Part shown: positions 253 through 43,520 of the stretch, in pieces
Numbering within the stretch: the first letter of the stretch is position 1
How the letters are laid out: every line of letters starts with the position of its first letter
Source of the DNA: a virus
Taxonomy: Duplodnaviria > Caudoviricetes
Length of the DNA: 43,520 bases
Strand: one strand, 5' to 3'
Virus record (IMG/VR): IMGVR_UViG_3300037483_000044
Coordinates: 1 to 43,520 of that record
Notes under the pieces: model-generated
Told to the model about the DNA's origin: nothing
Seen by the model: the letters and a program-made list of their open reading frames with translations, nothing else
Database searches by the model: none
Position numbers and translations under genes: made by a program

Positions 253-2219
253 GCGTCTTCTTTGATGAAACCACTAACACTGTAGCGGTCGCCCTAACCG
301 ATGCAGTGCAAAAAAGAGACGCGCTTAAAAAGGGAATCACAGACCAAGAAAACCGAATTAAAGAACTCAACACTGAAATAGAGCGGATTAGACGGGAAGC
401 ACAAGAAAACATTACAGCCTTAAGCACAGAGCGCAGTAAAATTGAAGTGGAGATTTTCGACACGCGCAGAGAAATTCGAGCGATCGAAAAGGAAATTTTA
501 GCACTAGAGCAAAAGCTCCGGTTACTTGAAGATGCAGCACGACGTAAAATGGAGTTTCAAGAAAACCAAATTGAATTTGACCGCATTACCGCGGGACTAA
601 GTTGGAGAGAATGGGCTCTCCCGCACCAAATTGATGGCGCACATTGGATGGCAGAATCCAGAAAGAGTATTCTCGCAGACAAGATGGGGTTAGGTAAAAC
701 ACTAACAGCCCTTATTGCTTGTGACATGCTTAAGGCACAGCGAATTTTAATTGTAGCACCATCTGATGTGGTAAAGAACTTTGAGAAAGAAGTAAGGCGT
801 TGGGCGCCGCATAGGAAAACAGTATTAAGTATGTACAAAATGTCTAAGGGTGAGCGCAATGCTGCATTTGAGTTGTTGCGACTTATTCCCGAAAACAATC
901 TTGTCATACTAATTAACTACGAAGCATGGCGTAAAGATAGTTCACTGATTAACAAACTAATTGAGCTAAGATTTGACACAATCATTTTAGATGAAGCACA
1001 CAACGTAAAGAACACCACTACCTTTGCTTACAAGGGCGTAGAGAAGATTACATTCGCAGAGAATTGTTGTCCTTGGTGCGGTGCGGCGATTATTAGCTAC
1101 AGCGTAGATAGATACAACCATTGTATGCGCTGTAGCGACGACAGTTGTGGGTGGGATACCAGAGATAACGTCGAGTGGGATGCAGGAGATAGGCGCAGTA
1201 TTAAAAATGTATTCCCAATGACAGGCACAACAATTCTCAATAGACCAGATGAACTCTATCCACTACTGCATCTTATTCTACCAGAAATCTTCTATGACCT
1301 AGAAGTATTCCGTGTCTTCTACTGCACTCAGAACAAGTACAATGGCAAGTGGGAATTCGCACCAGGTGCAATGGATAAACTAGCACAGCATCTTAAGGGC
1401 AGGTATGTAATGCGTACCCGCCATGATGCTAACGTCAAGATTCCTAAGCAAGACATCATTGTCCACGAAATTCCGCTACAGGAAGTACAAGAGTTTTATC
1501 CTGGCCAATTCAAGATCATGCAGCAACTCTCTAAGTATGCGCAAATTGTACTGGATTCTGGTAAGAAGTTAACACCAATGGCTGCTATTACGGTTATTCT
1601 ACGTAAGAGACAAGCTAATGTACTTCCGGCTGGAATTGAACTGAAAGATGGAGACGGCAATGTCATATTCTCAGTTGGGGATGAGACAAGCGAATCTGTC
1701 AAAATTGATAAGGCGTTTGAGTTACTTACAGAAATTACAGCAGATGGGCTCACTTTCGGTGAGAGGGCGGTTGTCTTTTCACAATTTAAGGCCCCGCTCC
1801 ATGCCCTATCTGAAAGACTTAACGACGCCGGTATTAGTTCGATCGTATTTGATGGCAGCACACCGGAAAAGATCAGGGAAGAAATTAAGGCGGACTTCGA
1901 CCGCGCAGTAGACGGAGAAAGAAAATGGCAAGTAGTTCTTGCAAATTACAAGGTTGGAGGAGTAGGACTTAACTTTACAGAAGCAACACACATTATCGCT
2001 CTAGATGAAGAATGGAATCCAGGTAAGAACGAACAAGCTTGGGCTCGAATTGACAGAGTAGGTCAGACCGAAGAAACCACCGTACATATTCTCCGTATTA
2101 CGAGTACAGTAGATACTTGGATGGCTGATCTAAACAATAATAAGCGTCAAATTATTCAAGGATTTGAAGTAACCGCTACAGGGATTCTTGAAGCGATGCG
2201 TAATGGAGAGATGATGTGA
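249..2219 (+). CDS. SNF2-family (SF2) DNA helicase/ATPase with N-terminal coiled coil
   Basis: Motif I LADKMGLGKT, motif II ILDEAH, VFSQF, GGVGLNFT, motif VI QAWARIDRVGQ. Confidence 0.92.
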   Translation: MSVFFDETTNTVAVALTDAVQKRDALKKGITDQENRIKELNTEIERIRREAQENITALSTERSKIEVEIFDTRREIRAIEKEILALEQKLRLLEDAARRKMEFQENQIEFDRITAGLSWREWALPHQIDGAHWMAESRKSILADKMGLGKTLTALIACDMLKAQRILIVAPSDVVKNFEKEVRRWAPHRKTVLSMYKMSKGERNAAFELLRLIPENNLVILINYEAWRKDSSLINKLIELRFDTIILDEAHNVKNTTTFAYKGVEKITFAENCCPWCGAAIISYSVDRYNHCMRCSDDSCGWDTRDNVEWDAGDRRSIKNVFPMTGTTILNRPDELYPLLHLILPEIFYDLEVFRVFYCTQNKYNGKWEFAPGAMDKLAQHLKGRYVMRTRHDANVKIPKQDIIVHEIPLQEVQEFYPGQFKIMQQLSKYAQIVLDSGKKLTPMAAITVILRKRQANVLPAGIELKDGDGNVIFSVGDETSESVKIDKAFELLTEITADGLTFGERAVVFSQFKAPLHALSERLNDAGISSIVFDGSTPEKIREEIKADFDRAVDGERKWQVVLANYKVGGVGLNFTEATHIIALDEEWNPGKNEQAWARIDRVGQTEETTVHILRITSTVDTWMADLNNNKRQIIQGFEVTATGILEAMRNGEMM

Positions 2220-2347
2220 AGAAACTTACTGCTGTGGTTCTTATTGGCCTTAGTATTCTTTCAATGTCTAGCTGTAAGCAAGACAAGGATTGCAATCCAG
2301 ACCAGAAAGGTTTCGAGAACTGTACTAAGGGAGGATGTAATTGCTAA
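2216..2347 (+). CDS. Small Cys-rich putative lipoprotein (43 aa)
   Basis: GTG overlaps the helicase stop. MKKLTAVVLIGLSILSMSS-CKQDKDCNPDQKGFENCTKGGCNC has a basic N-terminus, hydrophobic core and lipobox-like Cys. Confidence 0.6.
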   Translation: MKKLTAVVLIGLSILSMSSCKQDKDCNPDQKGFENCTKGGCNC

Positions 2348-2493
2348 ATCCTAAACATGATAAATGGAAGTGTGGTTGTAACGGATGTACAACTTTTCGT
2401 TATGACTACCACTTAACACGTAGACTAATTAAGAAAGAAAACCAAAAGTTGCTTATGGCACAGCTTTCAGGTAAATGGAAGGTGAAATATTAA
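2341..2493 (+). CDS. Small hypothetical protein (50 aa, CGCNGC)
   Basis: TTG start after GGGAGG; translationally coupled to both neighbours. Confidence 0.5.
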   Translation: MLNPKHDKWKCGCNGCTTFRYDYHLTRRLIKKENQKLLMAQLSGKWKVKY

Positions 2494-2633
2494 TGGTGAC
2501 TGTAGTTAATGGTGAACGAATCGGAAAGATCCATAATGATCCCTGTAGCGGAAGTCCTTCTAGAAGGATTCGCAGAGAAGGTAAGAAGTCTGTCCGTCTT
2601 CGTCGCCTTCTAAGAAGTAAAAATAATGCCTAG
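2493..2633 (+). CDS. Small basic hypothetical protein (46 aa)
   Basis: TAATG coupling with the upstream ORF; MVTVVNGERIGKIHNDPCSG... Confidence 0.5.
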   Translation: MVTVVNGERIGKIHNDPCSGSPSRRIRREGKKSVRLRRLLRSKNNA

Positions 2634-2736
2634 ACGTCCAGGTAAACCGGATAGCTGTGTCCCTGTAGCGATGTTTGTTATAGGATGTATTAGCTATCTA
2701 ACTATTGTTGCTGCTTGGGGTTTTAGAATAGTTTAA
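2626..2736 (+). CDS. Small membrane peptide (36 aa)
   Basis: MPRRPGKPDSCVPVAMFVIGCISYLTIVAAWGFRIV has one hydrophobic segment and overlaps the upstream stop. Confidence 0.5.
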   Translation: MPRRPGKPDSCVPVAMFVIGCISYLTIVAAWGFRIV

Positions 2737-2788
2737 CTAAGCACGATCTGCCTCGAACTTGTAAACCTCTTACTGTGGGAGCAGAATT

Positions 2789-2998
2789 ATGAAGCTAAAG
2801 TGTCTAAAGCACGATCGTCGGGTTATTGCTGTTGGAGATAACTTCATTCATCGGACTGGTGATGGAAGTCACTGTGATTCTGCAGCGGCAGTAATCGGAG
2901 GTGATGTGGTCACTCCACTAACCTTAATGACATGCTCAGAAGAGAAAATCACCCGCTACAGAAGTCTGTGCTCTAAAAGGGGTATACCCGAGATGTAA
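2789..2998 (+). CDS. Hypothetical protein (Cys/His-containing)
   Basis: ORF track; GGGAG RBS upstream. Confidence 0.65.
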   Translation: MKLKCLKHDRRVIAVGDNFIHRTGDGSHCDSAAAVIGGDVVTPLTLMTCSEEKITRYRSLCSKRGIPEM

Positions 2999-3018
2999 GT
3001 TCGGGATACTTAAACGAC

Positions 3019-3046
3019 CAACTCGGCTATCAACTCGGCTATCAAC
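3019..3046. repeat. 12-bp tandem repeat CAACTCGGCTAT x2.3
   Basis: Read directly from the sequence, in the intergenic gap. Confidence 0.85.
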
Positions 3047-3109
3047 CGTAAAGTCGCCCTTTAGGCGCAGAGATAACTACAGCCAAATATCCAACTATCA
3101 GAGGAGATT

Positions 3110-3412
3110 ATGATGTGCGATCGCTGCGACAAGGCTAAGACTGAGTACAACAAAGCCGTGGCTGAGTACGTCAAGGCTAAGACTGAGTACAACAAGACTG
3201 ATGCTGAGTACGACAAAGCCGTGTCTAGGTACGTCAAGGCTGATGCTGAGTACGACAAGGCTAAGACTGAGTACGACAAAGCCGTGGCTGAATACTATAA
3301 GCTTGATGCTGAGTACAACAAGGCTGATGCTGAGTACAACAAGGCTGATGCTGAATACGTCAAAGCCGTGGCTGAGTACGACAAAGCCGTGTCTAGGTGC
3401 TCGATTACGTAG
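3110..3412 (+). CDS. Heptad-repeat coiled-coil protein with N-terminal CxxC
   Basis: GAGGAG RBS; about 12 tandem 21-nt units encode EY(N/D/V)KA(VA/KT/DA). Confidence 0.8.
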   Translation: MMCDRCDKAKTEYNKAVAEYVKAKTEYNKTDAEYDKAVSRYVKADAEYDKAKTEYDKAVAEYYKLDAEYNKADAEYNKADAEYVKAVAEYDKAVSRCSIT

Positions 3413-3419
3413 ATGGTAA

Positions 3420-3492
3420 GCGCCGTTAGCTCAGATGGTAGAGCAGCTGACTTTTAATCAGCGGGTCATAGGTTCGAGCCCTATACGGCGCA
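3420..3492 (+). tRNA. tRNA-Lys(UUU)
   Basis: Acceptor GCGCCGT/ACGGCGC, anticodon arm GCTGA-CTTTTAA-TCAGC, GGTTCGAGCC T-arm; no encoded CCA. Confidence 0.95.
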
Positions 3493-3521
3493 CGAATTCA
3501 AAGTCTAGTCAAGGAGTCAAA

Positions 3522-3674
3522 ATGTGTGACAAGTGTCTTGAAACTGGCGCAGAGCTGAACGACACTACGTCTCGATTCGAGACTGCTAGGATCGCGTTCA
3601 ACGAGGCTGTTAATCAACAGCATGAGGCTAGGCTTGCATATGATGCAGCTAAGGCCAAGTGCCAAGACAAGTAA
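3522..3674 (+). CDS. Small coiled-coil protein MCDKC...KCQDK (50 aa)
   Basis: AAGGAG RBS before ATG 3522. The longer track ORF (3435) runs through the tRNA, so the start was moved. Confidence 0.75.
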   Translation: MCDKCLETGAELNDTTSRFETARIAFNEAVNQQHEARLAYDAAKAKCQDK

Positions 3675-4210
3675 CCGGAGAATAGCGAGCGTCCCGAAAT
3701 CCTGACCGGGCAGGTCTGTTATAAAGCGAGTGCCACCCAACTCGAAGAGATGTCAGCAGGCGGTTAAGAGCTCCCTGTATACGAAAGGCAAAACTCTTCG
3801 ACGAGTGTGACAGACGAGAACTTAAGCCCGGTGCGGCAGATAAGTTGACACTAGCCTTTAAAGATAGGTTGTTCCGTTAGTGGGAGCATTAATGTCGGTC
3901 TATCTAGTGTACGCCGTGCCTATTACTTATCTGCGTGAAGTCTCCCAACTATTATAGAGGTAGTTGCCAGTCGCCTCACGGGATGACAACTGGTATAAGT
4001 ATTACTCTTCGGTGTTGTTACACTGACAACTATCGGAGTTTTTGTAAGGGGCAGGCGATATGGAGTAGTGACCAGGATCGCCCTGTAGCGCAGATTAGGT
4101 ATCTAGCGGACAGACAAAAAGAGAGCCGGTTTATTAACTAGCCCGGTTGAAGTCTGGTGAAAAGCCAGAGCCTCTCATAACAAAAAGCCCCCATTAATAA
4201 CCCGATGTCT
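3675..4210 (+). ncRNA. Large structured non-coding RNA, ROOL-like candidate
   Basis: Nested stems 3705-3711/3826-3832, 3714-3722/3807-3815, 3742-3749/3794-3801, 3836-3845/3925-3934 and 3848-3854/3904-3910, plus TCTGG-TGAAAAG-CCAGA. It lies between two tRNAs with no RBS-led ORF. The family call rests on remembered motifs only. Confidence 0.7.
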
Positions 4211-4223
4211 AACAAGGAGTCCA

Positions 4224-4319
4224 ATGATGGGTGATGTCTTTAGTATTAAAACTTCAAGCGTATTTCGTGTAATGAAATCTGCGGACTATGGAGAGCAGTT
4301 TGTGAGGGTTCAAATCTAA
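4224..4319 (+). CDS. Tiny hypothetical protein (31 aa)
   Basis: AAGGAGTCCA-ATG leader, almost identical to the leader of the next gene. Confidence 0.45.
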   Translation: MMGDVFSIKTSSVFRVMKSADYGEQFVRVQI

Positions 4320-4345
4320 ATCGTAATAGCTAAAAAGGAGTCCAA

Positions 4346-4699
4346 ATGTCTGTTGCAGCCATGGACGATATGTGGGATGCTCTACAGTGGGTATACGATA
4401 ATAATAAAATTCCTGCGTACTGTAGGAAGTCTTGGAAAAACATGCTGGACTATAAGGACCAAAAAACTACAAATCGAGCATATGAAGATGCCGAATTCAT
4501 TTACAACTCAGAATTCATTTACGACTCAGATGACACTAACGTCGTTCTTATCTACCGTGCTATTAGAGCTGCTTATATTGCCTTCCATTACTTGTTAGAC
4601 GATACACTGAATCTTAATGCTACTGTCACAGCCCTTGTAAAGGAGCGTACTATGTATGCAATAACTCAATGTGTTAAATTGGGCTACCCAAAATCCTAG
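4346..4699 (+). CDS. Hypothetical protein
   Basis: AAGGAG RBS; 117-aa ORF. Confidence 0.75.
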   Translation: MSVAAMDDMWDALQWVYDNNKIPAYCRKSWKNMLDYKDQKTTNRAYEDAEFIYNSEFIYDSDDTNVVLIYRAIRAAYIAFHYLLDDTLNLNATVTALVKERTMYAITQCVKLGYPKS

Positions 4700-4708
4700 T
4701 AATGCTAT

Positions 4709-4781
4709 TCCCTCATAGCTCAATTGGCAGAGTGAGCGGCTGTTAACCGCTAAGTTGTAGGTTCGAGTCCTACTGAGGGAG
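4709..4781 (+). tRNA. tRNA-Asn(GUU)
   Basis: Acceptor TCCCTCA/TGAGGGA, anticodon arm AGCGG-CTGTTAA-CCGCT, GGTTCGAGTCC T-arm, discriminator G. Confidence 0.95.
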
Positions 4782-4950
4782 CATGTGTGAATCCACTTGT
4801 CCTTACCATCACTATGTGAAGAAATCTAATGGAGAATGGAGATGTATCCATTGTGGAAAAAGGACTATGGGATAGGATAAGGGATTGGTATAGACCAGAG
4901 GAACTTAATCCTGAATTAGATTATGGGGATGGTTACGATGAGGATGAATA

Positions 4951-5373
4951 ATGTTGGAGTACGCTAATGGAGAGCTTATAGTAGATTGGATTGATTATCC
5001 GTCATATTGGCGTAGTAAAATATGTACTTGTGCACATAGTGTATATGGATATTACGGAGAATATCCTGTAACTCTTATTGACGGTAGATGTTCTAAATGT
5101 AGAAAACACAGGAATCATATCCTGCATACTTGTATCTCTTGTAATGAGATTTTTGCTAAGGATTTTAAACATCCAGGATTCGACTGGAAAATGCCAGAAT
5201 GCTGGGAGTGTTTAGAGAGAAATCCTGATTATGTATGCCAGAATTATCCAGAACAAGTTATAGAATATAATATACAACAAGGTAAAGTTCCTTCAAAGAT
5301 TAAAAAAGAATCTGAAATGTTACGCCTAGCCGAAGGACCTTCTGTTTTTTCTTTCTTAAAAGGAATAAAATGA
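4951..5373 (+). CDS. Cys-rich (putative Zn-binding) hypothetical protein
   Basis: CTC, CSKC, CISC and CWEC pairs. Confidence 0.7.
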   Translation: MLEYANGELIVDWIDYPSYWRSKICTCAHSVYGYYGEYPVTLIDGRCSKCRKHRNHILHTCISCNEIFAKDFKHPGFDWKMPECWECLERNPDYVCQNYPEQVIEYNIQQGKVPSKIKKESEMLRLAEGPSVFSFLKGIK

Positions 5374-5723
5374 CTACACGTACACGTACATCAGGTGCTT
5401 CCAAAAAATTACTGGATTATCTCACTATGAATGCTGATCGTCCTATCTTTATAGAAGACCTTGTAAAAGATACAGGGGTTAAGTACAGCACTATATCCAC
5501 TGCTTTTACTAGACTTACTCAACTGTACCCTAATGCAGAAAGAATAGGAAAAGGTATTTATAGATGGAGCAGTAAACCTTCTGGTATACCTGTGACAATA
5601 GCAGATGTTACATCTATTAAGGAGTTCATAGTAAAAGTTCTTGATACAAAAGAAGATGGTACTATGTTAGTATCCGAAGAGGATTCAGAGAGACTATTCG
5701 TAATGAAGCCACTAGAATGGTAA
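5370..5723 (+). CDS. Putative winged-helix DNA-binding protein
   Basis: IEDLVKDTGVKYSTISTAFTRL (HTH-like) followed by wing-like ERIGKGIYRW. Confidence 0.65.
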   Translation: MTTRTRTSGASKKLLDYLTMNADRPIFIEDLVKDTGVKYSTISTAFTRLTQLYPNAERIGKGIYRWSSKPSGIPVTIADVTSIKEFIVKVLDTKEDGTMLVSEEDSERLFVMKPLEW

Positions 5724-5729
5724 TAGGAG

Positions 5730-5936
5730 ATGAAAATGGCTAAGTCTAATAATACAGATAATTTCGCGCTAGCTCTTGGGGACTTTCTTAACGGAATGTC
5801 TGATGTCCAGCTAAGTGACGGGGACATGGGAGAAATTACTGTAACTGATCTAAACCCGCCACGCTTTACTGTAGAGGTTCTCAATTTTACAGATGAGACT
5901 ACTAAGAGTTTTGAAATCACTGTCAGAGAAGTCTAA
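5730..5936 (+). CDS. Acidic hypothetical protein
   Basis: AGGAG RBS; the start may be 5736. Confidence 0.7.
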   Translation: MKMAKSNNTDNFALALGDFLNGMSDVQLSDGDMGEITVTDLNPPRFTVEVLNFTDETTKSFEITVREV

Positions 5937-5950
5937 GTAGCTTACAGGAT

Positions 5951-6020
5951 CGGGCCCGGTCAAGTTTCTCCACCTTGAGGTAAGGGGAGGGATCCGGGGA
6001 GTGGGAGGGTACCCCACATT
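5951..6020 (+). ncRNA. Structured intergenic element, copy 1 (unknown family)
   Basis: CGGGCCCGG...CCGGGGAGTGGGAGGG...TACCCCACATT is shared with 11541-11668; GC-rich island in AT-rich DNA. Confidence 0.55.
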
Positions 6021-6051
6021 TACATCAAAATTTAATGAAAAGGACTATCCA

Positions 6052-6276
6052 ATGCGTCTTAAAAAAAATGACGATGGTTCAGTAACTATTGCTCCAGATG
6101 AAGATAATAAATTAGCTATTGTAGCTGTAGCTGAATATAAAGGAACTACAAACGTTGTAGAGTTCTATGCAGGTGATATTATTTCTGGTCCCGATAAACT
6201 CAAGGTATACATGGGATTTGCTAAATATATTATGGGATGTGTAGATTATCTGCACGCACACGAGTGGGATACCTAA
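6052..6276 (+). CDS. Hypothetical protein
   Basis: AAGGA RBS before ATG 6052 (MRLKKNDDG...). The track start at 6001 lies inside the structured element. Confidence 0.7.
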   Translation: MRLKKNDDGSVTIAPDEDNKLAIVAVAEYKGTTNVVEFYAGDIISGPDKLKVYMGFAKYIMGCVDYLHAHEWDT

Positions 6277-6381
6277 AATGAATAAAAAACTTTCTTGTGG
6301 ACATACTCGGTTTATCGAAACACAACGATTGTACGAGAGATGGCATTTTTGCTTTGAATGCGATGACATGAGGCGAGAAGT

Positions 6382-6582
6382 ATGAAAATTTTGATAGGTC
6401 TGATGCTTTTAATTGCAGGAATTACATCACCTACGCCGGTTCATGTACCTCACGGAATGTATAATACACCTACTGGGTATGCTCCAACTTATAGTTGGGA
6501 TAGGATATTTAATGAGTATACATTAGATGATCCAATAGTAAGATCTTCAAGCAGCAAGGATATTATTGATGGTAACAACTAA
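6382..6582 (+). CDS. Putative secreted/membrane small protein
   Basis: Signal-like N-terminus MKILIGLMLLIAGIT. Confidence 0.6.
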   Translation: MKILIGLMLLIAGITSPTPVHVPHGMYNTPTGYAPTYSWDRIFNEYTLDDPIVRSSSSKDIIDGNN

Positions 6583-6790
6583 AATTGACTATGTTCTTAA
6601 TGTATCTGTTACAAAAAGAGCAACAGATTTCACTACTACTAAAACTGGGTATGGACCTTCCGAGAGAGAAGATGTATCAAAAGGTATAACTATAGTAACT
6701 GAAGTAACTAAGATTGTACAAAAGGCTTCCTCATTAGAGGAAGTTAAGCGTATTGCACTAGGTTTAATACAACTTATTCCAGGAGAGTAA
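6566..6790 (+). CDS. Hypothetical protein
   Basis: ORF in a tightly packed operon. Confidence 0.65.
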   Translation: MMVTTKIDYVLNVSVTKRATDFTTTKTGYGPSEREDVSKGITIVTEVTKIVQKASSLEEVKRIALGLIQLIPGE

Positions 6791-6795
6791 CGTGA

Positions 6796-7397: not shown

Positions 7398-7422
7398 CAG
7401 GATGTATATGCGGTCATATACT
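7394..7422 (+). promoter_or_regulatory. SigA/sigma70-type promoter upstream of the endolysin
   Basis: TTGACA-17 nt-TATACT. Confidence 0.75.
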
Positions 7423-36770: not shown

Positions 36771-37059
36771 TAGTAGTTCCTAAAAAGTCCATAATAGACT
36801 GATAAGCTGCCTCAACCCCAGCAGTAGCCGCTTTCAATTCATCTGTAACTTTAAAAAGAGTCGCTACAGGGACATAATCTATCTTTGTAGCGGCTTCTTC
36901 CATACATGTTATACAAAAGAAAACACCACCATAATACTCAAGCTCCATTTTAAAATCTATAACAGGTCGATCCACTGCGCCACAAACTGCACATTTACCT
37001 GGGAAAGAAGGGGGCAATTGTAGAATTTGAAAACGTGACTGTGCAGGATTAGTTGTCAT
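36553..37059 (-). CDS. Zn-finger hypothetical protein
   Basis: PGKCAVCG...FCITC. Confidence 0.65.
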   Translation of the reverse strand: MTTNPAQSRFQILQLPPSFPGKCAVCGAVDRPVIDFKMELEYYGGVFFCITCMEEAATKIDYVPVATLFKVTDELKAATAGVEAAYQSIMDFLGTTNESFASLRHTIISKFRNDGFVLEQSTQQTTINTDELKPGSCEDSRQVDRDSVDEGSASVSSNTSNESTIFSF

Positions 37060-37244
37060 TACTTATCCTTTTTGGTAGATTCCTTTACCTCTGCTTTGAA
37101 TCCTAGAGACACATAATTGGGAGTTCTACCTTCCATTTCTGCATACTTCTTTTCCTTGGTTAATAGTTCAAGCTCGTCCAAGTAAGGTCCTCCCTGACGA
37201 CCTTCTACATTATCAAACTCTGTGTATTTCATTAGAAATCCCAC
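37059..37244 (-). CDS. Hypothetical protein
   Basis: Coupled ORF after the terminase. Confidence 0.6.
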   Translation of the reverse strand: MGFLMKYTEFDNVEGRQGGPYLDELELLTKEKKYAEMEGRTPNYVSLGFKAEVKESTKKDK

Positions 37245-38749
37245 TCCATTGGATTAGTTCCTAGTTGCCATTTAGTATCTGGCTGTGATGCGACGTACAT
37301 TTTAGCAAGAACCTCGTTGTATGAGGTAATACCATCACTCTTAGGAATTACTAGATTTGATACTGATTCTAACTCAGGTGTGAGATCAGGCATAAAAGTG
37401 AAGAAATACCTTGCGGCATCGGCCGCGTGATCATCCTTTTTATGGATCTGGTCATGTGCGTTGTTATCGAACTGCGCTTTCTTAGAAGCATAAGTTTTCC
37501 ATCTAAGTCTTTCCATTTCTCTAATAAGATTAACGCAGTTTTCAGTAATTAGCCAATATGGTTTGCCTGTTTTTGGATTAATTTTTAAATATGACGATAC
37601 CTGGTTAACACCGGATAGTACATCATTATTTCCCGGTGTAATAAAGACACCATACTTTGAGTATTCACCAGCGATAGAGGTCCCGGTAACTCCTTGACGT
37701 TGTTGAGTTGCGGGATCTCCAATACAAACATCTGGTTCTCGTCCAAACTGTTTGTCCATGTCAAGAACAATCTGTGCATGTTGTTTCACAGTCATCTCAG
37801 ATGCATAGTGTTCTGCAAAAGTTATAATAGTGCCATTACTAGATACAGCGTGCCATAGCCAAGCTGTAGGGTTATTGAATCCATGATCCATGCTACGATA
37901 CCATTCCCACTCCTGCAACGATTTTGGCGCTACAGGGGAAATAACATGTATCTTTCTATCAAAGTTCTTGTATACCTTGCCACCTAGCTGAACAAACTGT
38001 CCTTTTTCCCGTGCCTTGCGTTCGTCAGGATCAAGATTACCAATAATTCTGTCAATGGCTTCTGGATTAAGATATGGATTTTCATGTATATCTACTTCAA
38101 TAACTTGGATATGAGGATTTCCATTTAACCCTGCATTATATATACCATCAAAAATCCAAGTCATTCCCTCTACAGGAGTTAATGTCAACCATATGTCACC
38201 ATCAGTATCTACCAAACGAAGCATATTTTCATCGTAAATGTGCTTGGGTGGTTCCTCATCAAAGTGCACAAAATGCCTACTAGTTCCTGCGTGAGCACCT
38301 AAATCTTGTTCATATGTTAACATATCCAAGGTTGAACCATTAGCTAAAGTTAATTCTTTTGCATCTGAGTTATAGGATCTTTCCCACGAACCACGCTTTA
38401 ATAGGCTTGGCGGAATCCATTGTTTAAATTTTGGAATTAAAATTTGTCCTATACCATGTGCATAATCTGTAGTTACTACTCTACCTCTTACTGGAGCCTC
38501 GGGTACTCTCTTATTGGGGTGCTCACCTTTAAGGTAGTAAATGTCCTCTACAACTCCACCAACAGTTTTCCCGGACCGGTTACCACCTATGTAAAGTCTA
38601 GTTTTAGCTGTTGATTCATGGAAAATTTTCTGTTTTGTATGAGGTACATATGCAAGAATATTAGGTTCTCTTGCAGTTATTTTTAGCTTCTCACCTACAG
38701 TACGCAGCATTTCAGCTTGCGTTATATCAACAGTCGTTCGTCTAGCCAT
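37232..38749 (-). CDS. terL: Terminase large subunit
   Basis: PHTKQ..FH, GGNRSGKT, VHFDEEP, LTLTP, SMDHGFNNPTA, IGDPA and KKDDHAADA.RY. Confidence 0.95.
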   Translation of the reverse strand: MARRTTVDITQAEMLRTVGEKLKITAREPNILAYVPHTKQKIFHESTAKTRLYIGGNRSGKTVGGVVEDIYYLKGEHPNKRVPEAPVRGRVVTTDYAHGIGQILIPKFKQWIPPSLLKRGSWERSYNSDAKELTLANGSTLDMLTYEQDLGAHAGTSRHFVHFDEEPPKHIYDENMLRLVDTDGDIWLTLTPVEGMTWIFDGIYNAGLNGNPHIQVIEVDIHENPYLNPEAIDRIIGNLDPDERKAREKGQFVQLGGKVYKNFDRKIHVISPVAPKSLQEWEWYRSMDHGFNNPTAWLWHAVSSNGTIITFAEHYASEMTVKQHAQIVLDMDKQFGREPDVCIGDPATQQRQGVTGTSIAGEYSKYGVFITPGNNDVLSGVNQVSSYLKINPKTGKPYWLITENCVNLIREMERLRWKTYASKKAQFDNNAHDQIHKKDDHAADAARYFFTFMPDLTPELESVSNLVIPKSDGITSYNEVLAKMYVASQPDTKWQLGTNPMEWDF

Positions 38750-38758
38750 ATTATTACC

Positions 38759-39067
38759 TTAAGCAGTAGTATTGTCTGTTGCACCTAATACTACTAGTGC
38801 AGCACATACGGAGGCTAATGCTGCATTACCTCCTTTAGCACCAGTTAATGTTACTCCATCTAGTAATTGAACTGAGTTGCTTCCATCATGAGTATGATTT
38901 CCTGCTGAAGCTTGAGCACTAGAAATACCAATAGAATGATGATGGGAGTCTTTAGCTACGTCTAGATCATCATTTCTATGAAAAGTTGTTACTACTCTTG
39001 GATCAACTACATTAGATCCCTTGGTTTTTTGGTCTAAATAAGGATCTACTAAAATTGGATCTGGCAT
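38759..39067 (-). CDS. Small structural protein (fibre-associated)
   Basis: SHHHSIG...ASAGNHTHDG metal-binding fibre-type motif. Confidence 0.6.
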   Translation of the reverse strand: MPDPILVDPYLDQKTKGSNVVDPRVVTTFHRNDDLDVAKDSHHHSIGISSAQASAGNHTHDGSNSVQLLDGVTLTGAKGGNAALASVCAALVVLGATDNTTA

Positions 39068-39711
39068 TATATCACCATATCTATAGTAAGATACGTTGGT
39101 ACTGTTGAAGAAGCACCACTACCTATAGTTCCACCGCCTGTAAAAAGATTCAAAGTACCTACGATAGTTTTAGAACCAGCCGCAGCACTATCATATTCAC
39201 CATGGATAGCTGCTCCATAGCCACCTGTAGTAAGGGGTGACGCAAAATTATTGGAAGCTAGTTGTGTACCAGAAACATTGTCTTCTCTAATACTAATGAT
39301 TGCAGTTGCATTTGCTGCAGTGGCAATTATACGTGAATGATAATTGATAAGATACTTTTTACTATTTAGTGCTGTAAAAGTGACCGTATCTACAATGGTT
39401 TCCGAGGAGACAGAAGCACTATTTGTAATACGCTTTGCTTGAGCAATACGTAAAATAGTACCTTTTCCACCAATGAATTGCCATGTAGCTCCATCGTAAC
39501 AATAAACTAAATTGGTATCTGTTTCATATATAGTTAATCCACTATATAGAGATCCTCCACTTGGACGTGTTGAACTAGTGCATATTGTTAAACCAGCCGC
39601 AGCATCTATCTTATCGTAATTTTGATCTAGATCTACGTCAACATCTACTGCGTCAGTGTTCGCTGGCTTGAATAACTTTAACCTGGTTGTTAGTGTTCCC
39701 ATTATTACCAC
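39067..39711 (-). CDS. Minor tail / receptor-binding-like protein
   Basis: TTRLKLFKP...NYDKID, CTSSTRPS and G..IYETDT....YDG.TW, as in actinophage minor tail proteins. Confidence 0.7.
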   Translation of the reverse strand: MVIMGTLTTRLKLFKPANTDAVDVDVDLDQNYDKIDAAAGLTICTSSTRPSGGSLYSGLTIYETDTNLVYCYDGATWQFIGGKGTILRIAQAKRITNSASVSSETIVDTVTFTALNSKKYLINYHSRIIATAANATAIISIREDNVSGTQLASNNFASPLTTGGYGAAIHGEYDSAAAGSKTIVGTLNLFTGGGTIGSGASSTVPTYLTIDMVI

Positions 39712-40354
39712 CTAATGCGGTGTTGGCCAACATTTGTACCTCAGCACCAATCTTAGCTAAAGTGCTTGGGTCTGTCACGTGCTTTGTAATTATCTCTACT
39801 ATCCTAGATAATACTGCCATTACGTCCATGGCATTCTTACTATTGGGATCCCACCTCTGTGTTATCTCATAGTAAAACTTAATTGCGTTCATATCGCCTT
39901 TTTCAGCTGTCTGTAGCAATGCTTGCTGAATCATTGGCGCGTGTTCTTCCAGCTGGTCCGCCGATAAAGAAGCTACCATGGATCGAAACTCTGGATTCTT
40001 CATCCACGCTGTCCATGTTACGTAACTGTACCCAAGATTCTTTAATTTCTTGGCTAAACCCCCCGCTACAGTGGGGTCTAACACGTGTGCTAAAACGTAC
40101 ATTTGTTCTGCACTAAGTCTGTTCGGTCTAATCCACGGTACCCCACGGGACAAAATTCCATGCTTAAAATCCGCGTGGTCCAGTATTTTAGCTAATTGAA
40201 GTGGATTTTCAAACATATCTCTGTGCTCATTAAATATCTCGTCTATCTTAGGGATTCTTCTCTTTTTAAGATAGAACATATATACATAATTAACTAGGTC
40301 TGTTACACATAATGCTAAATCTTTTTTCGAGGTCTGCAATTGAAGGCACCCCAC
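39653..40354 (-). CDS. Putative terminase small subunit / HTH protein (start uncertain)
   Basis: LKNLGYSYVTWTAWMKNPEF HTH and A..GDMNAIKFY pattern; upstream of terL. Confidence 0.55.
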   Translation of the reverse strand: MGCLQLQTSKKDLALCVTDLVNYVYMFYLKKRRIPKIDEIFNEHRDMFENPLQLAKILDHADFKHGILSRGVPWIRPNRLSAEQMYVLAHVLDPTVAGGLAKKLKNLGYSYVTWTAWMKNPEFRSMVASLSADQLEEHAPMIQQALLQTAEKGDMNAIKFYYEITQRWDPNSKNAMDVMAVLSRIVEIITKHVTDPSTLAKIGAEVQMLANTALGGNNGNTNNQVKVIQASEH

Positions 40355-40781
40355 AATCTAATAGTGCTTCTTTGAGCAAGAACGGCAATGCAGTATTGGT
40401 AGATAGTTCATATGCTTGTATGATACTCTGTTGTATCTTCACTGTCCTGCAGTATTCTATTAAGCTATTTCCAATTACTACTTGACGATAACACTTATGT
40501 GGGTGTTCTGGACAGGAGAAATAGTTACGCAAAAAGTATTCAGTTCGCGGAAAGAAAAGAGCCGCTACAGGGGCTCGTTCATTGCGAATCCAGACATGAT
40601 ATGTATCTAACAGAGAAATATCTGATAAGTAAATAGAAAGAGTGGTTTCTAATTTAGGAGATGGAGTTGAGTAAAGTCCTTGTTCAACGCGAAGAACGTA
40701 GTTCCGCGACAGGGATGATTCTTTAGCTAATCGAGCTTGAGTTAGACCAGCTTGGAGTCTCAGTTTCTTGTATGGGTTCAT
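40290..40781 (-). CDS. XRE-family HTH transcriptional regulator
   Basis: LRLQAGLTQARLAKESSLSRNYVLRVEQG, plus a second degenerate HTH in the C-terminal half. Confidence 0.8.
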   Translation of the reverse strand: MNPYKKLRLQAGLTQARLAKESSLSRNYVLRVEQGLYSTPSPKLETTLSIYLSDISLLDTYHVWIRNERAPVAALFFPRTEYFLRNYFSCPEHPHKCYRQVVIGNSLIEYCRTVKIQQSIIQAYELSTNTALPFLLKEALLDCGVPSIADLEKRFSIMCNRPS

Positions 40782-40833
40782 ACGACTAGTATATCGGTAG
40801 ATCGAGATGAGTAAAGTAGTATACTAAGTATCT

Positions 40834-40907
40834 AGTATACTAACTTAATTTTTTATAGAAATAAACTAAGTATACTAACTTAATTTTTTATAGAAATAAA
40901 CTAAGTA
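40834..40907. repeat. AT-rich 35-bp tandem direct repeat x2
   Basis: AGTATACTAACTTAATTTTTTATAGAAATAAACTA at 40834-40868 and 40869-40903. Confidence 0.9.
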
Positions 40908-40953
40908 CCTATCTATGGAAACAACTGCGCGTTTCAAGCCTGTACAACATGAC

Positions 40954-40981
40954 TTGACATTATGCGCACTCGGAGTAAGAT
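40954..40981 (+). promoter_or_regulatory. SigA-type early promoter (cassette 1)
   Basis: TTGACA-16 nt-TAAGAT, preceded by TGGAAACAACTGC. Confidence 0.65.
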
Positions 40982-41028
40982 TCTCCTTGTAAGTGAAAGC
41001 CCAGCCCTCAGAAGATACGGAGCTACTC

Positions 41029-41406
41029 ATGATTACCAAGGCACGCGCGCAGGAACTTCACGCCAAGGGTCACGAAGATCTGCGCAGGAACTTCTACGAT
41101 CCCAAGTCGTTCGGTGAACTCTGCAAGAAAATGGTCACAACTCTCACTTCCGATGAGTACACCATGTGGGGAGGCGGAGCCGTCTGTGAGTCCGCGGAAC
41201 ACTCGGTGATGTTCCAGATGGTCGTCACGATCACTCTCACCTCGGTCTACCAGAATGTGAAGGGCGAGGAACTCCCGGAGTTCTCCGGGGATGTGGTGGA
41301 GGACGCCCCCGATCCGGACGCTCAGCCAGGCACTGACGACGTTCTGCTGGCACAGCTGCGCGAGATCGTCGGAGACGACTTCATCCTGGGAGATGACACG
41401 GACTAG
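41029..41406 (+). CDS. GC-rich early hypothetical protein with acidic tail
   Basis: GGAG RBS before ATG 41029; high GC3 codon usage. Confidence 0.8.
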   Translation: MITKARAQELHAKGHEDLRRNFYDPKSFGELCKKMVTTLTSDEYTMWGGGAVCESAEHSVMFQMVVTITLTSVYQNVKGEELPEFSGDVVEDAPDPDAQPGTDDVLLAQLREIVGDDFILGDDTD

Positions 41407-41419
41407 TTCTGAGGGCTAG

Positions 41420-41457
41420 GCAGGAAATCCCCTGGATCTCTCCAGGGGATTTCCTGT
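41420..41457 (+). terminator. Long hairpin terminator
   Basis: GCAGGAAATCCCCTGGA-TCTC-TCCAGGGGATTTCCTGT. Confidence 0.8.
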
Positions 41458-41603
41458 GTCCCGAAGGCCTGCCTGGAAACAACTGCCGTCACAATGCCGT
41501 CAAGCCGCGCACAATGCCTATCCCTGGACTTGCATTAACACTCTATCTGTGATTGACTATGTCTAAGCAAGCCACCCACTACCCAGACCAAGAGGAGTAC
41601 ACC

Positions 41604-42341
41604 GTGTCTGACACGACCGACTACACCGTCCCCATGCGAGAGCTTGTCTCTCAACTCATTCGGGAGAACAACGACCGGGCCGACCGGCTTCGTTCCGCCG
41701 GTAATTCTGCTGCACTTCTCGCAGAAGTCCGCGATGAGAAGGAAACCGAGGATGTCAACATCCTGGACTACCGAGAGATGCGAGAGAAGGCTCTCGCAGA
41801 AGTTCTTTCCTGGGAGAAGGATATCGAGGAATACATTCGGAATGCTGGACTCGTCGATGCCCCGACTGTGGATGTCGAGAAGGAAACCGCAGCTTGGAAG
41901 GCACAGCACTCAACTGTCAAGAACATGATGGCTGTTCTGACTTCTCTCGCGGGAGATGACGGAACGCGGGAACTTCCCGAGATCAAGGGGATTCCTGGCA
42001 AGTCCGGAACTACTAGCGGAAATAGTGGAGGTACTGGTATCACTCGTCCGCGATTCCAGAGCATCCGCTACAGCGTGGCAGGTTCCGACAAGTGGACTGA
42101 GGTTTTCCAAGTCGATGAGAAGGATGATGGTACCAGGGAACAGAAAACCTCTCTCACCATTCTGGCGCTCGCACTCAACAAAACATATAAATCGAATGTT
42201 TCGGCATCCGATCTACACGGTCCTCTCTTCGAGGAAGCCGGAACCAAGGATCTGAAATCTCTCAAGGGAAAGCCTGTCGCGTTCGCTTTCTCCGTGGGAG
42301 ATGTCAATGTCATCGTGGAGGCCACCCCACGTGTTGACTAA
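41604..42341 (+). CDS. GC-rich early hypothetical protein (coiled coil, Gly linker, C-terminal domain)
   Basis: GAGGAG RBS before GTG 41604; high GC3 codon usage. Confidence 0.8.
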   Translation: MSDTTDYTVPMRELVSQLIRENNDRADRLRSAGNSAALLAEVRDEKETEDVNILDYREMREKALAEVLSWEKDIEEYIRNAGLVDAPTVDVEKETAAWKAQHSTVKNMMAVLTSLAGDDGTRELPEIKGIPGKSGTTSGNSGGTGITRPRFQSIRYSVAGSDKWTEVFQVDEKDDGTREQKTSLTILALALNKTYKSNVSASDLHGPLFEEAGTKDLKSLKGKPVAFAFSVGDVNVIVEATPRVD

Positions 42342-42346
42342 TCCCT

Positions 42347-42390
42347 AGGAAATATCCCCTAGTCTTTCATTAGACTAGGGGATATTTTCT
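42347..42390 (+). terminator. Long hairpin terminator
   Basis: AGGAAATATCCCCTAGTCT-TTCATT-AGACTAGGGGATATTTTCT. Confidence 0.85.
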
Positions 42391-42470
42391 TGCCTAAAAA
42401 TCTTAGTCCACCGCATGGAAACAATGCCGGCGATATGTCCGTTGTATACCATATGTCCGAAATCTGCCTA

Positions 42471-42500
42471 TTGACAGCTTACCCCCACATCTGCTACTAT
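42471..42500 (+). promoter_or_regulatory. SigA-type promoter (cassette 3)
   Basis: TTGACA-18 nt-TACTAT with an extended TG; TGGAAACAATGCC upstream. Confidence 0.7.
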
Positions 42501-42665
42501 TGCATTAGTTCGAGCGGCACCGTGTAATGACATGTGGTTAGTGAATATAACTTTGGCATGGCTTTAGGACTAATATAACCAACATATTAAAACTGTAGAG
42601 TTCTGTTCCGCTACAGGGAATCTGTAGCCATCACGTTTTAATAGGCCATAACCAGAGGAGTGAGA

Positions 42666-42821
42666 ATGTCCAAGCCACGTGTTTATAAGGAAATCCTGAC
42701 CTATAACGATCTCTGGCCTCGTTGGGTTGGAGTTAATCAATATGGTCAGATGGGTTTCTTCAACTGCTGGAAGGATGCACTTAATTATGCCGTCGAAATA
42801 ACCATCTTTCTTAAACGTTGA
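42666..42821 (+). CDS. Small hypothetical protein (51 aa)
   Basis: GAGGAG RBS; MSKPRVYKEILTYNDLWPRW...FNCWKDALNYA. Confidence 0.7.
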   Translation: MSKPRVYKEILTYNDLWPRWVGVNQYGQMGFFNCWKDALNYAVEITIFLKR

Positions 42822-42984
42822 GGGACTAACTAAAAATCATTTTGTGTATACCACATTGATTTCTAAAAAGTCCTTATTTACCTTATGCGTTTTATGTCCC
42901 AGATGTCCGATATGTCCAATTCTAGAAGATGAGAGCTTGTTACGGGACGGAGTCCCTCCACTAGCTCTCATCTTTTCGGTTTCG

Positions 42985-43107
42985 CGTTATCACAGAAGTA
43001 ACGTTGGATCATGCTCTGACCAGGCACGTTACCCATGCAGTAACGCTCATCTCTCAATGATCATGGTAATGACCTCCAAAAAGATCAACGTTACTCTCAC
43101 AGTAACG
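42985..43107. promoter_or_regulatory. Three dyad sites CGTTAY-N7-GTAACG
   Basis: 42985-43003, 43027-43045 and 43089-43107. Confidence 0.7.
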
Positions 43108-43148
43108 AACGGACATTCAGGACATCTCTCACATATAAGACAGTAGGT

Positions 43149-43520
43149 GTGTTTTATTTGGTTATCGTTGAACCTAAAGAATTATTCGATTTCTTCTCCA
43201 CTGTAGCGCATGGGTTGTTCTCCTACGAAGCAGAAGAATCATTGTCACTACCAAGGAACTCTTTACGTCGTCACTTAGCTAAACCAGGGTTTAGGCAACT
43301 ACCAGACAAAAGGTACTGTCTAAACACAGATTCCTTTGAGCAATTTTGTGTACTTCAAGGGTACGCTGTCGTTAAACGTGTTCGTAGCGCGGATTACCCA
43401 TTTGAAATCGAGGAATGGAAAAAGGAATTAGCTGGGTTCTCCCTTGGAGACCTAGTTGCTGGGTTGCAAACTGTCCAACTTAAGGATTTTAACGACTGGC
43501 TAGAACCGACGGGGTTAGCT
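43149..43520 (+). CDS. 5' part of the junction-spanning hypothetical protein (start uncertain)
   Basis: Open frame VFYLVIVEPKELFDFF... continues into 1-252. Confidence 0.7.
   Translation, partial: MFYLVIVEPKELFDFFSTVAHGLFSYEAEESLSLPRNSLRRHLAKPGFRQLPDKRYCLNTDSFEQFCVLQGYAVVKRVRSADYPFEIEEWKKELAGFSLGDLVAGLQTVQLKDFNDWLEPTGLA
43383..43520. repeat. Terminal overlap (right copy)
   Basis: Matches 1-138 with one mismatch. Confidence 0.95.

What the first reader, a model, noticed from the sequence alone, without database searches (positions are those of the whole stretch)
280..43208. Genome-wide motif (CC)CTGTAGCG: at least 36 copies on both strands, inside and between genes
Seen: exact CTGTAGCG starts at 280, 1130, 2543, 2663, 4083, 6863, 8278, 11735, 14429, 16260, 21258, 31207, 35206 and 43201. 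The reverse complement CGCTACAG starts at 1474, 2174, 2954, 6930, 8350, 9806, 11676, 15024, 15199, 17963, 23092, 26650, 27205, 31139, 33325, 34297, 36862, 37928, 40064, 40563, 42066 and 42609. Sixteen extend to the 10-mer CCCTGTAGCG (hand count, may miss some). A rough expectation at ~38% GC is under one 8-mer copy. The motif is read in different frames (PVA, ATG, RYR, PCS, SLQ), so it is selected as nucleic acid, not as peptide. Mean spacing is about 1.2 kb, with a 13:4 orientation bias right of 17.9 kb. Established: RepB'-type primases (RSF1010) prime at specific ssi sequences; TAGCG(T/A) is the CS-6 box of rolling-circle ssoA origins; cluster A mycobacteriophages scatter 'stoperator' repressor sites. 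Inference: these are dispersed recognition sites for a phage protein. Options are lagging-strand priming sites for the RepB'-like primase (Okazaki-scale spacing), stoperator-like sites for the XRE/wHTH protein, or Chi-like/packaging signals.
Basis: partly seen in the sequence, partly recalled or inferred. Interest (0 to 1): 0.9.

Follow-up and report, generated by a model that had tools for sequence, protein, structure and literature searches.

The report
Genome-wide phage primase start signal
This phage genome carries 36 copies of one eight-letter DNA word on both strands where about one is expected, related words mark most phages that share its primase-helicase gene, and the word is likely where that enzyme starts new DNA strands.

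Summary
The window is a whole podovirus genome related to Microbacterium phage Shocker and Arthrobacter phage Jasmine. Its gene at 11925-13751 folds as a RepB'-like primase (catalytic domain plus helix bundle) fused to a RepA-like helicase. Three close relatives carry the same word (37-56 copies) at mostly different positions. A word with a [C/G]TGT core is the top 7-mer in 51 of 59 loci with this primase and in 2 of 53 random viral loci. It follows the primase into siphoviruses of Serratia, Pseudomonas and Gordonia, not the host, capsid, TerS, XRE or wHTH. The core fits the priming registers published for RepB' and pRN1. Best reading: dispersed single-strand priming sites, primer starting with A on the T of CTG. 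No binding or priming has been tested. No hairpin and no origin-type strand switch were found, and two primase-bearing phages lack the word. No paper in ten searches describes it. Earlier agents of this scan reached the same reading on other phages.

The parts
280..43208 (+). 14 copies of CTGTAGCG starting at 280, 1130, 2543, 2663, 4083, 6863, 8278, 11735, 14429, 16260, 21258, 31207, 35206, 43201
1474..42616 (-). 22 copies (CGCTACAG on +) starting at 1474, 2174, 2954, 6930, 8350, 9806, 11676, 15024, 15199, 17963, 23092, 26650, 27205, 31139, 33325, 34297, 36862, 37928, 40064, 40563, 42066, 42609. The full signal is about 12 nt: C-rich at -3 to -1 (C 2.0, 3.1, 2.3-fold), G/A at +1
   Evidence: 183 sites pooled from four genomes
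6863..6937 (.). opposed pair of sites 67 bp apart in the deaminase gene; both sites conserved in G002, one in G001
8278..8357 (.). opposed pair of sites 72 bp apart
11676..11742 (.). opposed intergenic pair 59 bp apart, just upstream of two tRNA genes and the primase gene
31139..31214 (.). opposed pair of sites 68 bp apart
11925..13751 (+). 608-aa primase-helicase (PHROG 3123), the proposed reader of the word
11937..12554 (+). RepB'-like AEP catalytic domain (residues about 5-210); D/E93, D95, H134, D163, R174 conserved in 55 of 55 rows
   Evidence: (Z 17.5 to 3h20, 18.3 to 6zp9)
12570..12860 (+). helix-bundle domain (residues about 216-312); K285, R289 invariant; F/Y286 varies with the word's fifth base (a lead only)
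12909..13670 (+). SF4 helicase domain, best match RSF1010 RepA
   Evidence: Z 26.3, rmsd 2.1, 224 aligned
13660..15483 (+). family A DNA polymerase, the likely extender of the primers; travels with the primase
9257..11530 (+). PD-(D/E)XK exonuclease, Sak4-like ATPase and a 170-aa acidic-tailed protein (SSB-like by position only, no family hit); co-travelling module, rival reader
40290..40781 (-). XRE-type HTH protein (considered as reader, disfavoured)
39653..40354 (-). terminase small subunit-like protein (considered as reader, disfavoured)
5370..5723 (+).

Best explanation
The 36 copies of (C)C-N-CTGTAGCG-(R) are most likely single-strand priming sites read by the phage's own RepB'-like primase-helicase (11925-13751). 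Shown: the word, its selection at silent codon positions, the enzyme's predicted fold, and that words with a [C/G]TGT core go with this primase across hosts and virion types. Inferred by analogy with RepB' and pRN1: the RepA-type helicase ring moves along the displaced strand; the helix bundle holds the 3' part (GTAGCG); the primer starts with (d)ATP opposite the T of CTG, adds G opposite the C, and runs into the C-rich 5' flank, giving a G-rich primer that the phage family A polymerase extends. Inferred: because forks cross the genome in both directions from no fixed point (recombination-driven or concatemer replication), both strands need sites, one per 1.5-3 kb per strand plus weaker CTGTAG sites. 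Selection would act on density, so sites turn over. Unlike RSF1010, no hairpin and no unique origin site is involved.
For: Fold: residues 1-312 match RepB' first in Foldseek (3h20, E 4.9e-11) and at Z 17.5, rmsd 2.9, 175 aligned; the helicase matches RepA. Identical word in G001, G002, G003 (54, 37, 56 copies), CTGTGGCG in G005. Sister words: Shocker CTGTAAAG 45/1.8, Jasmine CTGTGG 101/16, DS1 CTGTCG 116/28, ctEqG8 CTGTAG 98/28; Serbin GTGTGG 62/14, BigChungus GTGTGG 76/27, Finny GTGTGGCC 40/3.2; Amigo GTGTGC 95/25, Jojan60 CTGTGC 91/36; PMBT14 GTGTGG 74/16.5, fetched after the pattern was set. Top 7-mer has the core in 51 of 59 primase loci and 2 of 53 random viral loci. Only the primase N-terminus and PolA are detected across nearly all word-bearing genomes (Finny's primase by HMM only). 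Five phages without this primase have no strong such word, including LP-037 and ctLwi270 (PolA) and Fury and Hawkeye (Sak4-like gene, other primase). Register: RepB' starts with dATP on T32 of G31-T32-G33 (PMC8567376); the pRN1 NMR template reads C1 T2 G3 T4 G5, primer initiation lies 5' of GTG, dGTP pairs with C1, and the helix bundle reads GTG (PMC13469122, PMC2965215); NrS-1 uses GTGG/GTGA (PMC8718748). Asymmetric C-rich 5' flank; position 1 tolerates G in G001 and G002 (11/0.5, 7/0.4). Same-strand pairs under 100 bp are depleted (2 vs 9.3, p 0.005) and opposite-strand pairs are not, as fits a strand-specific signal. Where the peptide is identical the site is kept in 36 of 56 directional comparisons against 75 of 822 background tripeptides.
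Against: No biochemical test. Satis (primase plus PolA) and Pan2 (primase, no PolA detected) show no such word, and 8 of 59 loci have another top 7-mer. The loci are related and partly near-duplicates, and the core criterion was set after seeing the first genomes. Other replication genes (PolA, exonuclease, Sak4, SF2 helicase) travel with the primase. There is no strand switch of the kind a fixed origin would give. Characterised relatives read a triplet (pRN1) or a 40-nt hairpin (RepB'), not a free 8-mer; S-2L, the closest fold, shows no such word. The F/Y286 covariation does not beat a clade-pair null (at least 20 of 151 pairs score as high). Whole-strand evenness is significant on only 2 of 8 strands, and short-range depletion is absent in the five other podoviruses under 100 bp.
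Confidence: 0.78

Rival explanations
1. The word is a loading or restart site for the same primase-helicase (or for PolA), recognised on double-stranded or forked DNA, and is not the primer start. Opposed pairs would be small bidirectional origins.
For: Everything that ties the word to this gene. Opposite-strand pairs 50-79 bp apart: 13 against about 3 expected in four genomes.
Against: The core matches template-side priming registers of RepB' and pRN1; the C-rich flank lies only on the side a primer would cover; 155 of 183 sites are unpaired.
Confidence: 0.08
2. The word is a Chi-like signal that stops or modulates the phage's own PD-(D/E)XK exonuclease and Sak4 recombination system.
For: Exonuclease and Sak4-like genes sit in the same module in the word-bearing phages (annotations). 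Chi sites are asymmetric dispersed octamers (recalled).
Against: Fury (Cas4 exonuclease and Sak4-like gene annotated) and Hawkeye (Sak4-like hit) have other primases and lack the core word (ranks 154 and 25). The window's exonuclease and Sak4 are not detected in most word-bearing siphoviruses while the primase domain is. Only two such controls were tested.
Confidence: 0.06
3. The word is a stoperator-like operator for the XRE or wHTH protein that silences transcription genome-wide.
For: An XRE homolog is present in 4 of 4 complete close relatives. Sense copies outnumber antisense 19 to 12.
Against: wHTH in only 1 of 5 relatives. XRE falls to 30% identity with an unchanged word and is not detected in Shocker, Jasmine, ctEqG8 or any siphovirus. 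Orientation to transcription is not significant (p 0.28). Positions are not conserved (4 of 23, 3 of 21, 2 of 20). No integrase among 65 ORFs scanned.
Confidence: 0.03
4. The word is read by a host protein (host Chi, host DnaG, ssoA CS-6).
For: It contains CTG, the E. coli DnaG triplet (recalled), and 18 of 36 copies extend to AGCGG, the B. subtilis Chi (recalled).
Against: Jasmine and Amigo infect the same strain and have different words (CTGTGG, GTGTGC); GTGTGG is shared by phages of Serratia, Pseudomonas, Gordonia, Microbacterium and Mycobacterium. GTAGCG outside the full word is not enriched in the window (8 vs 10.5). The host of this phage is unknown and was not examined.
Confidence: 0.03
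5. The word is a packaging signal for TerS/TerL.
For: TerS homologs are found in all 8 close podoviruses compared.
Against: Sister words occur in siphoviruses where no TerS, capsid or portal homolog is detected; ctLwi270 has the capsid and portal but not the primase and only a weak CTGTGC excess (55 vs 31-33).
Confidence: 0.02

Closest known systems
RSF1010 (IncQ) RepB' primase with ssiA/ssiB, and RepA helicase
   Same: Same two-domain primase fold, helicase closest to RepA, [C/G]TG core where RepB' starts on the T of GTG (PMC8567376).
   Different: RepB' uses one 40-nt hairpin site per strand for leading-strand-only replication. Here there are dozens of short sites per genome, no hairpin across or 5' of them, primase and helicase are one chain, and a phage PolA is adjacent.
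pRN1 ORF904 primase (GTG read by the helix bundle)
   Same: Helix-bundle domain (Z 7.2, a middling score). The NMR template C1-T2-G3-T4-G5 has the family's core (PMC13469122).
   Different: pRN1 needs only GTG. Here the enriched word is 6-9 nt and differs between lineages (GTA, GTG, GTC plus extensions).
Phage NrS-1 primase-polymerase sites (TTTGGTTA; GTGG/GTGA)
   Same: Phage AEP with helix bundle, 8-nt recognition reported (PMC8718748, PMC10250227).
   Different: Distant fold match (Z 5.5). The 8-mer is proposed there as an origin site; the passages read report no genome-wide enrichment.
T7 gp4 primase-helicase with gp5 PolA (recalled)
   Same: Primase fused to an SF4 helicase beside a family A polymerase; primes at sequence-specific sites.
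   Different: T7 uses a DnaG-type primase with a zinc finger and a GTC triplet; here an AEP and a much longer word.
Cyanophage S-2L PrimPol
   Same: Closest catalytic-domain fold (Z 18.3). Its authors found no primase activity and asked for the triggering template (PMC8065100).
   Different: S-2L has no PolA, is not hit by this family's HMM, and shows no [C/G]TGT word.
Cluster A mycobacteriophage stoperators (recalled)
   Same: Asymmetric word, 20-40 copies, inside and between genes.
   Different: Stoperators are 13 bp, oriented with transcription and go with a repressor. This word is on both strands and goes with the primase.

Membership tests
RepB'-like AEP primase (protein 11925-12860) | RepB'-type catalytic alpha/beta domain | tested here: met
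   Foldseek 3h20 E 4.9e-11, 3h25 E 1.4e-8; VIA Z 17.5, rmsd 2.9, 175 aligned; model pLDDT 93
RepB'-like AEP primase (protein 11925-12860) | three catalytic acidic residues and the nucleotide-binding arginine (RepB' D77, D78, D134, R145) | tested here: met
   D/E93, D95, D163, R174 conserved in 55 of 55 rows; D163-R174 spacing equals D134-R145; assignment by motif and spacing, not by residue-level superposition
RepB'-like AEP primase (protein 11925-12860) | C-terminal helix-bundle domain | tested here: met
   helical domain 216-312; Foldseek alignment spans 321 columns of full-length RepB'; pRN1 bundle Z 7.2, PriX Z 5.9, both middling
RepB'-like AEP primase (protein 11925-12860) | de novo primer synthesis | not testable with these tools
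   needs purified protein
IncQ ssiA/ssiB initiation signals | 40-nt element with a hairpin 5' of the start triplet | tested here: not met
   30 nt 5' of the sites fold like random genome 30-mers in four genomes; no fold across the word beyond flank shuffles, z -1.2 to 0.4
IncQ ssiA/ssiB initiation signals | one copy per strand inside oriV | tested here: not met
   14 and 22 copies spread over the genome
IncQ ssiA/ssiB initiation signals | primer starts on the T of a GTG triplet | tested here: inconclusive
   family core is [C/G]TG; the start position itself cannot be tested here
AEP primase recognition site (pRN1/NrS-1 type) | short asymmetric word on the template, read by the helix bundle, primer started at its 5' side | tested here: inconclusive
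   asymmetry, 5' C-rich flank and co-occurrence met; helix-bundle covariation not significant; priming untested
Stoperator | oriented with transcription | tested here: not met
   19 sense, 12 antisense, p 0.28
Stoperator | goes with a cognate repressor | tested here: not met
   wHTH in 1 of 5 relatives; XRE not detected in 9 of the 14 word-bearing genomes compared
ssoA CS-6 box | TAGCG(T/A) in the loop of a large hairpin, one per plasmid (recalled) | tested here: not met
   next base T/A in 14 of 36; no hairpin; relatives lose TAGCG
Host Chi site | word is set by the host | tested here: not met
   two phages of one strain differ; one word is shared across five host genera

The most novel reading that the evidence does not exclude
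This primase family has a changeable 6-9 nt recognition code in its helix bundle that co-evolves with a genome-wide word. Each phage lineage writes its own priming grid through silent codons, so its replisome primes its own DNA but hardly the host's or a competitor's. Opposed pairs 50-80 bp apart act as dispersed ssiA/ssiB-like mini-origins in place of a single origin. Primase specificity could then be read from k-mer counts and re-programmed.
Probability: 0.25. Interest if true: 0.85.

Novelty: new variant of a known kind. Interest (0 to 1): 0.68.

Why it matters
Primase recognition sites have been found one enzyme at a time by screening oligonucleotides, and some enzymes (S-2L PrimPol) still have none. 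If this reading holds, a wide family of phage RepB'-RepA fusions has long recognition words that can be read from the genome. That gives a ready template for each enzyme, natural variants (GTA, GTG, GTC, 3' extensions) to work out how the helix bundle reads DNA, and cultured test phages (Shocker, Jasmine, Amigo, Serbin, PMBT14). It also shows a replication signal shaping codon and amino-acid choice across a genome, which matters for recoding phages, and it explains genes often mis-annotated as RecA-like recombinases.

Tried and rejected
Hairpin around the word: several window sites look like stem-loops, but folding is no better than with permuted flanks in 13 of 14 genomes (Amigo z -2.1). An ssi-like hairpin 5' of the word: none. 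A strand switch marking an origin: none in nine genomes binned or the four. Position-specific operators: sites turn over. wHTH, XRE, TerS, capsid as reader. CS-6 and host Chi. A residue code: F/Y286 separates C from A/G at the fifth base (Y in 9 of 9 C-type and 3 of 3 CTGTAA rows; F in 22 of 25 CTGTAG rows) and held in 11 further C-type loci. Those 11 fall in an already counted clade (8 of them were placed in that tree) and random clade pairs score as well, so it is a lead only. S-2L as a test of generality: no such word. Sequence search of the PDB with the N-terminus found nothing. A scan of metagenome contigs with the alignment did not run. The RSF1010 ssi sequence could not be obtained, so bases beyond G33 were not compared. 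Literature searches listed no paper on these words; PMC9206674 and PMC11724360 passages were irrelevant.


Full report
1. The observation. Every coordinate is exact: 14 CTGTAGCG on +, 22 on -, 16 extended to CCCTGTAGCG. Markov expectations are 0.7-3.0 copies; at order 2 the expectation is 0.98 and p is about 1e-42. It is the top 8-mer, and single-base variants have 0-7 copies. 31 of 36 copies lie in ORFs; 1000 synonymous-codon shuffles give 1.6 on average and 7 at most. The word is read in five different frames, so it is kept as DNA. The 13:4 bias in the right arm (p 0.049, after the fact) mostly reflects sense-strand xVA codons; overall 22:14 is not significant. After masking the 8-mer, CTGTAG is still about twice expected (59 vs 31) but GTAGCG is not (8 vs 10.5).

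2. The genome. The last 138 bases repeat the first 138, so the window is one whole circularly permuted phage genome. It has a P22-like portal, an SU10-type capsid, TerL and TerS on -, and on + an SNF2 helicase, PD-(D/E)XK exonuclease, Sak4-like ATPase, a 608-aa primase-helicase and a family A polymerase; no integrase was hit among 65 ORFs. The nearest named phages are Microbacterium phage Shocker, Arthrobacter phages Jasmine and Adat, Cellulosimicrobium phage DS1 and ctEqG8.

3. The candidate reader. A model of residues 1-312 (pLDDT 93) matches RSF1010 RepB' first in Foldseek (E 4.9e-11). In a wide structural search it matches the S-2L AEP domain (Z 18.3) and RepB' (Z 17.5), well above the next rows (Z 9.7); the helical part resembles the pRN1 helix bundle (Z 7.2, middling). 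The C-terminal domain is closest to RSF1010 RepA (Z 26.3; HMM E 2.8e-10). D/E93, D95, H134, D163 and R174 are conserved in 55 of 55 rows. So the protein is a RepB'-like primase fused to a RepA-like helicase. Activity is untested.

4. Relatives have their own words with one core. G001, G002 and G003 (primase N-terminus 70, 62, 48% identical) carry 54, 37 and 56 copies of the same 8-mer; G005 carries CTGTGGCG 27 times. Shocker has CTGTAAAG (45 vs 1.8), Jasmine CTGTGG (101 vs 16), DS1 CTGTCG (116 vs 28), ctEqG8 CTGTAG (98 vs 28). Of 80 IMG/VR loci with this primase, 59 hold at least 10 kb. In 51 of those 59 the top 7-mer contains [C/G]TGT or starts with TGT, and in 57 it is in the top three. Of 120 loci drawn with an unrelated 14-mer, 53 hold at least 10 kb; 2 of 53 meet the same test and 12 in the top three; 8.9% of all 7-mers would (homopolymer words excluded). 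The primase loci are related, some are near-duplicates, and the criterion was fixed. On a quick primase tree the words form clades, with A-to-G changes at base 5 in at least three places and A-to-C in two or three.

5. The word follows the primase, not host or virion. Siphoviruses with a distant homolog of the N-terminal domain have GTGTGG (Serbin on Serratia, BigChungus on Gordonia, NoShow on Mycobacterium, PMBT14 on Pseudomonas), GTGTGGCC (Finny), GTGTGC (Amigo) or CTGTGC (Jojan60). Amigo and Jasmine share a host strain and differ in word. Under an order-3 model a [C/G]TGT hexamer ranks first in 11 of 14 named primase-bearing genomes (window included; Adat left out as a near-copy of Jasmine), third in Finny, and nowhere near the top in Satis and Pan2 (for genomes over 50 kb only 49.9 kb was read). 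In five phages where the family HMM finds no homolog the best ranks are 3 (ctLwi270, weak: 55 vs 31), 22 (LP-037), 25 (Hawkeye), 154 (Fury) and 192 (S-2L). In a tblastn table of 20 window proteins against 16 genomes, only the primase N-terminus and PolA are found across nearly all word-bearing genomes; the wHTH is in one, XRE in five, TerS, portal and capsid only in podoviruses (wHTH confirmed). PolA is also in word-less ctLwi270 and LP-037. Fury has a Cas4 exonuclease and Sak4-like gene with another primase.

6. Anatomy of the site. Over 183 sites in four genomes, C is enriched 2.0, 3.1 and 2.3-fold at -3, -2 and -1 with A depleted, and G 2.1-fold at +1. Position 1 accepts G in G001 and G002, as it does across the family. 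There is no hairpin across the word or 5' of it, and no strand switch along the genome. Positions turn over: 4 of 23, 3 of 21 and 2 of 20 alignable window sites are kept in G001, G002 and G003. Where the peptide is identical the word is kept in 36 of 56 directional comparisons, against 75 of 822 background tripeptides. Same-strand pairs under 100 bp are rare (2 vs 9.3, p 0.005) and opposite-strand pairs common (18 vs 9.1, p 0.01) in these four genomes; five siphoviruses also show same-strand depletion under 200 bp (7 vs 24), five other podoviruses do not under 100 bp; six control word sets gave 4-22 same-strand pairs. I ran after reading earlier notes on even spacing; the close-pair pattern was already visible. 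The opposed pairs cluster at 50-79 bp, which I cannot explain.

7. Mechanism. From the papers: RepB' starts a 10-12 nt DNA primer with dATP on T32 of G31-T32-G33, with C at 30 and 28, and needs its helix bundle (PMC8567376; parts 1-3 of 5 read: introduction, results, discussion). pRN1 primes immediately 5' of GTG, which the helix bundle reads; the NMR template is C1-T2-G3-T4-G5-C6-T7 with dGTP paired to C1 (PMC13469122, introduction and passages; PMC2965215, passages). NrS-1 primes 5' of GTGG/GTGA or TTTGGTTA (PMC8718748, passages). Laid on that register, the family's words read [C/G]-T, then GTN, then a lineage-specific tail. Inferred: on the unwound strand the bundle holds GTAGCG, the primer starts A then G opposite T2 and C1, and runs over the C-rich flank; PolA extends it. 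Mean spacing per strand is 2.0-3.1 kb here and 1.5-3.2 kb in the relatives, in the range of Okazaki pieces (recalled). Use of both strands everywhere suggests forks in both directions without one fixed origin (inference). An 8-mer would be rare in a host chromosome, so the word could also confine priming to phage DNA (inference; host unknown).

8. What speaks against it. Nothing is shown biochemically. Satis and Pan2 lack the word, as do some loci. The replication genes travel together, and only two exonuclease/Sak4 controls were tested. The best covarying residue, F/Y286 in the invariant K285-R289 loop of the bundle, is the top column of 585, but at least 20 of 151 random clade pairs score as high. 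Characterised relatives read a triplet or a hairpin, not a free 8-mer.

9. Known or new. It works like a primase recognition site (RepB', pRN1, NrS-1, T7) but is not an ssi element: hairpin and uniqueness fail. Ten searches of the open library listed no paper on these words; I saw listings and abstract starts, and passages of PMC10250227, PMC8065100, PMC4434180, PMC13037366, PMC12205980, PMC11724360 and PMC9206674. I did not see Geibel 2009, Zhu 2017, Boudet 2019, Kazlauskas 2018 or the Arthrobacter and Microbacterium phage surveys, and read no supplements; a description there cannot be excluded. Stoperator, Chi, CS-6, DnaG and T7 details are recalled. Earlier agents of this scan reported the same reading for CTGTAG, GGTGTGGA, TGTG-type and CTGTGGGCA words on other phages; these are unchecked notes, read after my reading was formed, and are not counted as evidence.

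10. Verdict. A real, strongly selected genome-wide signal; most likely the priming site of a RepB'-RepA fusion primase (0.78); a new variant of a known kind; interest 0.68.

Noticed in passing
window 6863/6930, 8278/8350, 11676/11735, 31139/31207; G001, G002, G003: Opposite-strand copies 50-79 bp apart are in excess (13 vs about 3; two are orthologous duplicates), while same-strand pairs under 90 bp are absent (0 vs about 9). Paired sites are more often position-conserved (14 of 45 vs 40 of 292 directional comparisons). Found after the fact; only partly seen in other relatives.
   Followed up: partly
L060, L075, L079, L080, L084-L089 (primase gene): [quoted passage not shown] L078, L082, L083 show only the first part.
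   Followed up: partly
L001 (Shocker), L041, L059: Two words coexist: CTGTAAAG and (CC)CTGTCG; Shocker also has TACCCTAA (15 copies). Possibly a specificity change in progress.
   Followed up: no
L231 (Mycobacterium phage Hawkeye): A different dispersed word, CTGGCGGA (32 vs 4.0), in a phage with another primase/polymerase.
   Followed up: no
window 40834-40903: Perfect 35-bp tandem duplication, very AT-rich, at the divergence point between the two transcription arms next to the XRE gene; candidate operator or origin.
   Followed up: no
window 42345-42390: 19-bp inverted repeat (95%) after the 262-aa ORF, near a TTGACA-18-TACTAT promoter-like site at 42471.
   Followed up: no
window 3110-3412: 100-aa ORF made of 7-residue (21-bp) repeats.
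   Followed up: no
window 3420-3493, 4709-4782, 11748-11897: Four tRNA genes: Lys(TTT), Asn(GTT), Leu(TAA), and one called Ile with anticodon TAT, which is rare in bacteria (recalled).
   Followed up: no
L007, L008, L009, L091, L228 primase genes: Homologs of this primase-helicase are annotated in GenBank as 'RecA-like DNA recombinase' or 'DNA recombinase' in many phages.
   Followed up: yes
window G000 as a whole: GC is 39% although the cultured relatives infect high-GC Actinobacteria; the host is unknown.
   Followed up: no
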